From a virus, in IMG/VR virus record IMGVR_UViG_3300025084_003207, positions 28,810 through 92,809 of that record: 64,000 nucleotides of DNA, one strand, 5' to 3'. Below are positions 50,754-51,241 of this stretch, piece by piece. Under the pieces are notes generated by a model that worked only from the letters and a program-made list of their open reading frames with translations, had not been told where the DNA came from and searched no databases. The position numbers were made by a program, and so were the translations under genes. Numbering within the stretch: the first letter of the stretch is position 1; each line of letters opens with the position of its first letter.

Positions 50754-50761
50754 GATAACTA
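50754..50761 (+). promoter_or_regulatory. late promoter box GATAACTA upstream of the non-coding structured element
   Basis: Same octamer as 5226-5233; followed by TTAAC, as at 51255 and 53301. Confidence 0.55.
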
Positions 50762-50766
50762 TTAAC

Positions 50767-51241
50767 TGAACAACAGGACTAAGGCACACAAGGCACATCA
50801 CGGCACACCCGGCAAACACATAGGACCATACACCACCCCATCGAGGCATATAATATCGATTTCCTTGACAATCCGTTCACGCGGTGCGAGATCTGGAATG
50901 TATGGCGGCAAATGAGATACAGTAGCACGACAAACAGTATTAAACGATTCAGGCTCTGAGAAAAAGCAACCTGAGAATCAGTATAACAGAACTATACAAT
51001 GTTATACCGGTTTCCGTGGGATTCGTGACGGTAGTGTATGAGGAGTAAAGGCCCACCGCTTCTTAACAGCACCCGAGTTATAGATGACGATGCATCACAT
51101 GATGACCCGTTATTGATTCACCTGCTACAGGTGAATTATGACTCAACATACATGATAACTTCTTTATTAAAAAAATTGCAAACAAAAACTGAAATGAACG
51201 AAGTGAATGAAGTTTGCAGTTGGCAAAGACACGAAGTGTCT
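50767..51241 (+). ncRNA. candidate large structured non-coding RNA (alternative: replication origin)
   Basis: Largest intergenic gap; about 45% GC by hand count over 50761-51120 versus 17% in the preceding 60 nt; many stems; own promoter box; no convincing ORF. Confidence 0.5.
50783..50817 (+). repeat. four phased GGCA(C/A)A(C/T) repeats
   Basis: Copies start at 50783, 50792, 50802, 50811 (period 9-10 nt). Confidence 0.75.

What the first reader, a model, noticed from the sequence alone, without database searches (positions are those of the whole stretch)
50754..51241. Candidate undescribed ~480-nt structured non-coding RNA with its own late promoter
Seen: the only large intergenic gap in a densely coded window, about 45% GC (hand count, 50761-51120), preceded by GATAACTA (predicted +1 near 50767). 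Stems: CCATACA/TGTATGG (50826-32/50899-905) or alternatively CATACACCACC/GGTAGTGTATG (50827-37/51030-40); ATCGA/TCGAT (50840-60); TCAGG/CCTGA (50949-74); GTATAACA/TGTTATAC (50981-51007, extendable with G-U pairs); GTGGG/CCCAC (51016-56); GAGTTATA/TATGACTC (51075-82/51137-44) enclosing ATTCACCTG-CTA-CAGGTGAAT (51116-36); TGCAAAC/GTTTGCA (51177-218). G-U extensions favour an RNA-level structure. It lacks tRNA, tmRNA, RNase P and group II intron hallmarks. Inference: a large ornate phage RNA of unknown family; the main alternative is a transcription-primed replication origin.
Basis: partly seen in the sequence, partly recalled or inferred. Interest (0 to 1): 0.82.

Follow-up and report, generated by a model that had tools for sequence, protein, structure and literature searches.

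The report
Twin-box structured RNA beside phage nuclease
The gene-free gap holds a real, roughly 475-base, doubly knotted non-coding RNA that in ocean T4-like phages always sits just behind a small nuclease gene and carries two short boxes that change between phages yet stay identical to each other; its job is still unknown.

Summary
Confirmed: window 50762-51241 (+) encodes a structured RNA. A hand-curated model (13 helices, two pseudoknots) on 40 distinct homologues gives 95% paired cells against 36-44% in slid controls, and 42 pairs carry compensatory changes. No Rfam family, tRNA or tmRNA matches.

The RNA always lies 3' of, and co-oriented with, a 138-147-aa stand-alone GIY-YIG gene: 83 of 83 metagenome loci fetched by an RNA-only pattern. 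The reverse does not hold. Only 47 of 80 GIY loci carry the RNA, and the cultured relative Melnitz has none.

Two 10-nt boxes (51097-51106 and 51150-51159) are identical at 9 of 10 positions in 127 of 128 sequences examined (40 + 88; the two sets overlap). There are 11 types and at least 12 concerted changes. Position 8 is always G, then A. I found no complementary partner nearby.

Freshwater relatives carry Rfam Polynucleobacter-1 at the same place.

In this window a recombination junction and an inserted opposite-strand oxygenase gene separate the nuclease gene from the RNA.

The "late promoter" GATAACTA is conserved but never matches this phage's NATAAATA consensus.

Function is untested. 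My best guess is an RNA partner of the nuclease. This scan found the family before on other DNA.

The parts
49781..50224 (+). Stand-alone GIY-YIG nuclease gene (147 aa). It is the constant upstream neighbour of the RNA.
   Evidence: Pfam PF19835 SegE_GIY-YIG, E 4e-33. The AlphaFold model (pLDDT 83) best matches the I-TevI catalytic domain (prob 0.98). It lies upstream and co-oriented in 121 of 122 RNA loci and in 83 of 83 loci fetched without reference to it.
50201..50698 (-). 2OG-Fe(II) oxygenase gene, an insertion between the nuclease gene and the RNA in this lineage.
   Evidence: Pfam PF13640. It is absent in most relatives, where the RNA starts 15-116 nt after the GIY gene. It has a perfect TATAAATA on the - strand starting at 50711.
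50754..50761 (+). Conserved motif GATAACTA (family consensus NATAA[C/G]TA). It may be a promoter or a 5' signal of the RNA. A recombination junction lies here.
   Evidence: Present in all 105 distinct RNAs, and kept here although it no longer ends the GIY ORF. Identity to L002 jumps to 99-100% from 50753 onward.
50762..50821 (+). Variable A/C-rich leader with GGCA repeats.
   Evidence: Poorly alignable, with indels and repeated (A)AGGCACA units.
50822..51160 (+). Conserved RNA core. Helices: P1 50826-32/50899-905; P1a 50840-44/50856-60; P1b 50873-76/50881-84; P2 50916-20/50937-41; P3 50948-53/50970-75; P4 50976-88/51000-12; pseudoknot a 50992-96/51079-83; pseudoknot b 51016-20/51052-56; P5 51029-31/51073-75 plus 51034-37/51069-72; P6 51040-45/51059-64; P8 51116-24/51128-36.
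   Evidence: 95% of cells paired and 42 of 94 pairs with compensatory change (figures for the whole model, tail helices included), with 0 of 500 shuffles reaching the observed values on four of five measures. The RNAalifold runs agree.
51097..51106 (+). Twin box A (ACATGATGAC).
   Evidence: Identical to box B at 9 of 10 positions in 40 of 40 and 87 of 88 distinct RNAs. Position 8 is always G.
51150..51159 (+). Twin box B (ACATGATAAC).
   Evidence: As for box A, but position 8 is always A. In MI analyses of 40 and 105 sequences the box columns correlate fully only with their twin columns.
51161..51241 (+). Tail: A-rich linker, helix P9 (51176-83/51219-26) around a purine-rich loop, and terminal hairpin P10 (51227-32/51236-41).
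   Evidence: P9 has 6 of 8 pairs and P10 4 of 6 pairs with compensatory changes. Homology ends right after P10 whatever gene follows. There is no U tract here.
51255..51262 (+). CATAAATA, a late-promoter-like motif of the next gene (51268-52164, 298 aa, no known family). It lies outside the RNA.
   Evidence: The downstream gene varies among relatives.

Best explanation
Window ~50762-51241 (+) is a discrete gene for a ~475-nt non-coding RNA of the 'twin-box' superfamily of aquatic T4-like phages.

Shown:
- It folds into 13 helices with two pseudoknots.
- It occurs only directly behind a stand-alone GIY-YIG nuclease gene.
- It can be separated from that gene by 0.6-1.5 kb inserts, and recombination re-assorts it with different nuclease alleles.
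- It carries two 10-nt boxes that are kept identical through repeated change.

Inferred: the RNA works through the nuclease as its RNA partner. The nuclease has a catalytic domain but no DNA-binding domain. The RNA would supply a scaffold and two equivalent read-out segments (the boxes) that base-pair with the same short sequence on a nucleic acid not encoded nearby. That would make the RNA a re-programmable recognition element.

Neither the RNA-protein contact nor any target was tested.
For: Structure: (95% paired against 36-44% in slid controls; 42 compensatory pairs).

Not coding: indels of 1, 2 and 4 nt, and an unconserved ATG, in the 73-aa ORF.

One-way dependence: the RNA always has a GIY gene upstream (83/83 and 121/122), while GIY genes occur without the RNA.

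Boxes: 11 types, at least 12 concerted changes on a tree built without the box columns, and 127 of 128 sequences examined matched (40/40 + 87/88; the two sets were not de-duplicated against each other). Identity over 9 of 10 nt with free variation is what base pairing demands. A conserved protein does not demand it.

The nuclease is a bare GIY-YIG domain with the conserved family residues kept.

The RNA is kept intact when an opposite-strand gene separates it from the nuclease gene, so it is not a simple 3' UTR.
Against: No complement of the boxes exists in the RNA, within 6 kb on either strand, or as a palindromic site in viral contigs.

GIY proteins from lineages without the RNA have the same invariant residues and the same basic loop. 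The cultured relative Melnitz has a 73%-identical GIY gene and no detectable RNA. So the nuclease does not need the RNA.

Nearly identical GIY alleles go with different box types (window versus L003).

No expression data could be obtained.
Confidence: 0.4

Rival explanations
1. Independent non-coding RNA (a sponge, decoy or host-takeover RNA that binds two copies of a host or phage nucleic acid). It travels with the GIY gene only because the two form one mobile or recombining cassette.
For: The cassette sits at mosaic junctions, is inverted in some contigs, and RNA and GIY alleles re-assort. GIY works without the RNA elsewhere. Box types recur in distant clades, as expected if a few partner variants exist.
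Against: No RNA copy was ever found without a GIY gene upstream on the same strand (83/83). That is hard to explain by linkage alone when recombination breaks occur between the two genes.
Confidence: 0.2
2. Replication-priming RNA of an origin, like ColE1 RNA II or T4 origin transcripts. The folded transcript re-anneals to its own template DNA. The twin boxes are direct repeats that let RNA or nascent DNA made at one box anneal at the other. The nuclease nicks or processes the hybrid.
For: The only sequence always complementary to both boxes is the template DNA strand itself, which explains the lack of a separate partner. The leader has phased GGCA repeats and an A-rich tract follows box B. 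The size resembles ColE1 RNA II (own knowledge). Two earlier notes of this scan reached this reading (unchecked).
Against: Nothing here shows an R-loop, an origin or an unwinding element. There is only one copy in 92.8 kb. No natural variant shows deletion or duplication between the boxes. Strong RNA-level covariation throughout suits a stable RNP better than a transient primer.
Confidence: 0.15
3. Regulator of the nuclease itself: either a 3'-UTR element controlling GIY mRNA, or an antitoxin-like RNA that binds and restrains the nuclease.
For: Constant position 15-116 nt after the GIY stop, on the same strand. The two identical boxes could be two nuclease cut or docking sites.
Against: The RNA is intact after 0.6-1.5 kb insertions that carry an opposite-strand gene. 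Its size and two pseudoknots exceed known 3'-UTR elements. Type III antitoxins are tandem 30-40-nt repeats upstream of the toxin, which is not the layout here.
Confidence: 0.12
4. Self-processing ribozyme that cuts, or cuts and joins, at the two identical boxes and releases the ~53-nt hairpin segment.
For: Two identical sites flank a conserved hairpin (P8). The pseudoknotted core is of ribozyme-like complexity.
Against: No match to any ribozyme family in Rfam. No internal guide complementary to the boxes.
Confidence: 0.08
5. Not an RNA: a protein-coding region or a purely DNA-level element.
For: A 73-aa ORF (51038-51259) and a 21-codon ORF (51196-51261) exist.
Against: Frame-breaking indels and loss of the start codon in relatives. 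G-U pairs are valid only on the + strand, and there are 42 compensatory pairs.
Confidence: 0.02

Closest known systems
Polynucleobacter-1 RNA motif (Rfam RF01718; Weinberg et al. 2010, PMC2864571). An orphan 141-nt motif from fresh water and estuaries, listed as possibly cis-regulatory.
   Same: In three loci it lies 25-40 nt after a GIY-YIG gene 53-63% identical to the window's. That is the place of this RNA's 5' domain. The 3' part of one of those loci (L348) is hit by the profile of the marine sister subfamily, and it has twin boxes with the same G/A rule. By eye, the first hairpin loop shares GGC...AAUAUC with P1a here.
   Different: The window does not reach RF01718 even at E 10. The catalogued motif covers only the first third of the RNA and includes neither the boxes, the pseudoknots nor the tail. 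No function is known.
HEARO / IscB omega-RNA (HNH endonuclease-associated RNA; Rfam RF02033).
   Same: A large structured RNA fixed next to a small nuclease ORF, with a conserved scaffold and a variable segment.
   Different: The nuclease fold differs (GIY-YIG, not RuvC/HNH). The RNA is downstream, not upstream. The variable segment is present twice and is internal. No target was found. There is no cmscan match.
GOLLD and ROOL (large ornate RNAs common in phages and prophages).
   Same: Size class, a phage setting, multiple pseudoknots, unknown function.
   Different: No sequence or structure match. Those RNAs are not tied to a nuclease gene and have no co-varying direct repeats.
ColE1 RNA II and hepadnavirus DR1/DR2 (own knowledge).
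   Same: A structured ~0.5-kb primer RNA, and short direct repeats that must stay identical so that a primer can re-anneal.
   Different: No evidence of replication initiation here. This is an analogy only.

Membership tests
Rfam RF01718 Polynucleobacter-1 | Reaches the family's gathering score in cmscan. | tested here: not met
   No hit at gathering score in the whole window, and none at E<=10 in 50500-51500. Met in relatives L348, L350 and L351 (98-114 bits).
Twin-box RNA superfamily (uncatalogued; this scan) | Lies directly 3' of, and co-oriented with, a stand-alone GIY-YIG gene. | tested here: met
   121/122 and 83/83 loci. In the window the gap is 530 nt because of the inserted oxygenase gene.
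Twin-box RNA superfamily (uncatalogued; this scan) | Two boxes flanking a hairpin, identical except for one purine (G then A). | tested here: met
   Boxes at 51097-106 and 51150-159. 40/40 and 87/88 matched. The same rule holds in L348, L351 and L345.
Twin-box RNA superfamily (uncatalogued; this scan) | Sequence homology chain to the other subfamilies. | tested here: met
   10 of 80 GIY loci are hit by both the A and B profiles. The B profile also hits L348, which carries RF01718.
Known large RNAs (RNase P, tmRNA, group I/II introns, GOLLD, ROOL, OLE, HEARO) | cmscan or ARAGORN match. | tested here: not met
RNA-guided nuclease systems (OMEGA/CRISPR type) | A target complementary to the variable RNA segment. 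| tested here: inconclusive
   None within 6 kb or as an inverted pair in viral contigs. Host genomes and complete phage genomes were not searched.
T4-type late promoter | Match to the phage's own consensus NATAAATA placed before a gene. | tested here: not met
   GATAACTA. Position 6 is C or G in 104 of 105 RNAs and never A.
Intrinsic terminator at the 3' end | G+C-rich hairpin followed by a U tract. | tested here: not met
   P10 is a covarying hairpin with no U run. L348 does have a U run after its terminal hairpin.
Type III toxin-antitoxin RNA | Tandem 30-40-nt repeats upstream of the toxin gene. | tested here: not met
   Only two 10-nt boxes, 53 nt apart, and the RNA is downstream of the nuclease.
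GIY-YIG nucleases (the neighbouring gene) | Family profile and fold. | tested here: met
   PF19835, E 4e-33. Top fold match is the I-TevI catalytic domain. There is no DNA-binding domain in 147 aa.

The most novel reading that the evidence does not exclude
The RNA and the bare GIY-YIG domain form a new kind of RNA-programmed nuclease. The twin boxes are the programmable guide, read twice, for example once per protomer or per DNA strand.
Probability: 0.12. Interest if true: 0.95.

Novelty: new variant of a known kind. Interest (0 to 1): 0.75.

Why it matters
Large, multiply knotted RNAs with hundreds of natural variants are rare and usually mark important machinery. This one is abundant in ocean viromes (Tara and many JGI samples) and is tied to a nuclease that lacks any targeting domain. 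It also contains a sequence element whose only visible rule is "be identical to your twin", and no described RNA family has that signature. If the boxes are guides, this would be a new RNA-programmed nuclease. If they are primer-transfer repeats, it would be a new origin type for T4-like phages. Either way it gives a function-finding handle for the orphan Rfam motif Polynucleobacter-1.

Tried and rejected
- Rfam at gathering score on the whole window, at E<=10 on the gap, and on 36 related loci. Nothing except RF01718 in three freshwater or MAG loci, plus tRNAs.
- ARAGORN found nothing.
- Sigma-70 promoter and intrinsic terminator scans found nothing relevant.
- DNA search of isolate phages found no match. 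Melnitz whole genome: BLAST and both nhmmer profiles were negative.
- A box A mini-hairpin (51093-96/51101-04) is only 62% paired in fixed register, so I dropped it.
- A 4-bp pairing of either box with UUAU (51136-39) is compatible but rests on one or two events. I make no claim for it.
- Third copy of the box at the GIY stop: the motif there does not covary with the boxes.
- Box-B mini-ORF and start-codon readings are not conserved across types.
- Hammerhead and C/D-box look-alikes are broken by natural variants.
- Palindromic target search in viral contigs gave 4 unrelated hits, about what chance predicts.
- One broad pattern scan returned mostly chance matches.
- The ORFs that follow GIY in RNA-less loci have no known family.
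- Literature searches found no description of the RNA.

Full report
**Setting.** The window is a fragment of an uncultured marine T4-like myovirus. It comes from an IMG/VR record of 92.8 kb that CheckV rates 26% complete. Upstream of the gap lie gp47- and gp46-type recombination nuclease genes. Then comes a 147-aa GIY-YIG gene (49781-50224), followed on the minus strand by a 2OG-Fe(II) oxygenase gene (50201-50698). Downstream lie a 298-aa gene of no known family and a gp26-type baseplate hub gene. The nearest cultured relative by the GIY protein is Methylophilales phage Melnitz, a member of Kyanoviridae, at 73% identity.

- The 569-nt gap is the only large ORF-poor stretch in the window.
- Its GC content is 45.6% against 34.9% overall.
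- Single-sequence folding is unremarkable (z -1.33 and +0.57).
- Relatives settle the question. Thirteen viral loci found through the downstream protein keep the gap at 85-99% identity, and the conserved block starts at 50753 even where the upstream gene differs.
- RNAalifold found 18 compensatory pairs in 9 sequences and 27 in 31 sequences.
- My curated model has 94 pairs in 13 helices plus two pseudoknots. On 40 distinct sequences, 95% of cells are paired against 36-44% when partners are slid. Forty-two pairs have changes on both sides, and 0 of 500 shuffles reach the observed values on four of five measures.
- Several invariant G-U pairs exist only on the plus strand, so selection acts on a plus-strand RNA.
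- Indels of 1, 2 and 4 nt and a lost start codon rule out the 73-aa ORF.
Positions 51079-83 pair with the loop of the 50976-51012 hairpin. The tail helix is 51176-83/51219-26.

**Extent.** Homology among relatives continues past box B through an A-rich linker, helix P9 and terminal hairpin P10 (51227-41). It stops there whatever gene follows. The next gene has its own CATAAATA six bases before its start codon. At the 5' side the core begins near 50822, preceded by a variable A/C-rich leader with GGCA repeats and by the motif GATAACTA.

**Context rule.**
- In every locus with enough sequence, the RNA lies just 3' of a homologue of the GIY-YIG gene on the same strand. This holds for 121 of 122 loci overall, and the exception is truncated.
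- It also holds for 83 of 83 metagenome loci fetched with a pattern from inside the RNA only.
- The downstream neighbour varies: the 298-aa gene, gp26, other ORFs, or gp46 inverted. In some contigs the pair is inverted as a unit.
- The reverse does not hold. Of 80 loci fetched through the GIY protein, 47 carry an RNA of the superfamily (19 of the window's subfamily, 18 of a sister subfamily, 10 hit by both profiles). Others have small ORFs instead.
- The complete Melnitz genome has the gene but no detectable RNA.
- GIY proteins from lineages with and without the RNA share the same invariant residues and the same basic loop.
- The protein model is a GIY-YIG fold whose best match is the I-TevI catalytic domain. 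It has no DNA-binding domain.

**What this window adds.** Its GIY and oxygenase genes are 91-95% identical to the L003 lineage. Its leader and RNA core are 99-100% identical to L002 but only 77% identical to L003. A recombination junction therefore lies at about 50753-61, between the nuclease gene and the RNA. The RNA is kept intact although an opposite-strand gene with its own perfect late promoter separates it from the nuclease gene. This argues against a simple 3' UTR and against allele-specific co-evolution of protein and RNA. Nearly identical GIY alleles go with different box types.

**Twin boxes.**
- Box A (51097-51106) and box B (51150-51159) flank hairpin P8.
- In 40 of 40 viral and 87 of 88 distinct metagenome RNAs they are identical at nine positions. 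Position 8 is always G in A and A in B.
- The one exception (L397) looks like a recombinant with a breakpoint between the boxes.
- I saw eleven box types. On a tree built without the box columns the type changes at least 12 times, always in both boxes together.
- Mutual-information scans on 40 and 105 sequences show the box columns fully tied only to each other.
- No complementary site exists within 6 kb on either strand, G-U pairs allowed. A search for inverted-repeat targets in viral contigs gave only chance hits.
- Freshwater and sister-subfamily members have different box sequences but the same rule, often again AUG versus AUA.

**Relation to known families.** No Rfam family matches the window. 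In three loci from freshwater MAGs, Rfam Polynucleobacter-1 (RF01718) lies 25-40 nt after a GIY homologue. One of these loci (L348) also matches the sister-subfamily profile in its 3' part. The catalogued orphan motif is therefore the 5' domain of a freshwater branch of the same superfamily. Weinberg et al. 2010 list it only as a candidate, possibly cis-regulatory, motif. Two full-text searches found no description of the full RNA or of its link to GIY-YIG genes.

**Promoter and terminator.** This phage's late-promoter consensus is NATAAATA, mostly GATAAATA. It lies 6-76 nt before many gene starts. The RNA's motif NATAA[C/G]TA is present in all 105 distinct RNAs, but position 6 is never A. Elsewhere in the window this variant rarely precedes genes. 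I therefore treat "own late promoter" as unproven. The conservation of the motif where it no longer ends an ORF does show that it serves the RNA. P10 is a covarying hairpin without a U tract. I could get no expression data.

**Mechanism.** The one-way dependence (the RNA never occurs without the nuclease gene) and the bare catalytic domain make an RNA partner of the nuclease the best single reading. The need for identity over nine variable bases points to base pairing with one partner sequence read twice. I put this reading at about 0.4. It is weakened by the absence of any target and by nuclease genes that do without the RNA. The rivals are:
- an independent RNA that shares a mobile cassette (0.2);
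- a replication-priming RNA whose boxes re-anneal to the template strand, which would explain why no separate partner exists (0.15);
- a regulator or inhibitor of the nuclease (0.12);
- a self-processing ribozyme (0.08).

**Earlier notes.** Earlier notes of this scan describe the same family on other DNA, including the twin boxes, the pseudoknots and the RF01718 link. I found the boxes and the GIY rule before reading those notes, and I re-tested the RF01718 link, the pseudoknots and the box rule myself.

Noticed in passing
window 10071-31346 (-): An uninterrupted 7091-aa ORF next to a 1406-aa ORF in the tail/baseplate region. Neither half matches any Pfam family.
   Followed up: partly
window 50753-50761: Mosaic junction. 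GIY plus oxygenase are L003-like (91-95% nt), while the RNA leader and core are L002-like (99-100%) and only 77% identical to L003.
   Followed up: yes
window, many sites (e.g. 10044-, 35950-, 36625-, 46042-, 53301+, 56282+, 63034+): The phage's late-promoter-like consensus is NATAAATA, mostly GATAAATA, found 6-76 nt before gene starts. The oxygenase gene has a perfect TATAAATA on the - strand starting at 50711.
   Followed up: partly
L397 (metagenome contig OCVQ010015737.1): The only RNA with mismatched boxes (ACTTGATGAC / ACTTGATAAG). Its flanks look like a recombinant between two lineages with the breakpoint between the boxes.
   Followed up: partly
L309:2300-2434 and relatives (L287, L293, L313, L285, L346): In GIY lineages without the RNA, the gene is followed by a conserved 44-aa very basic ORF and other small ORFs with no known family.
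   Followed up: partly
L343-L358 (genome contigs): GIY homologues, some with the RNA, sit on contigs binned into MAGs of many phyla (Neomarinimicrobiota, Crocinitomicaceae, Polynucleobacter, Pacearchaeota and others). These are probably phage contigs mis-binned, or infected cells.
   Followed up: no
window 51196-51261 (+): A 21-codon ORF inside the RNA tail overlaps covarying helices P9 and P10, and its end varies among relatives. It is probably not a gene.
   Followed up: partly
window 51075-78 / 51141-44: A possible extra helix GAGU/ACUC would enclose box A and P8. It is over 90% paired, with only one-sided (G-C to G-U) changes and no compensatory support.
   Followed up: partly
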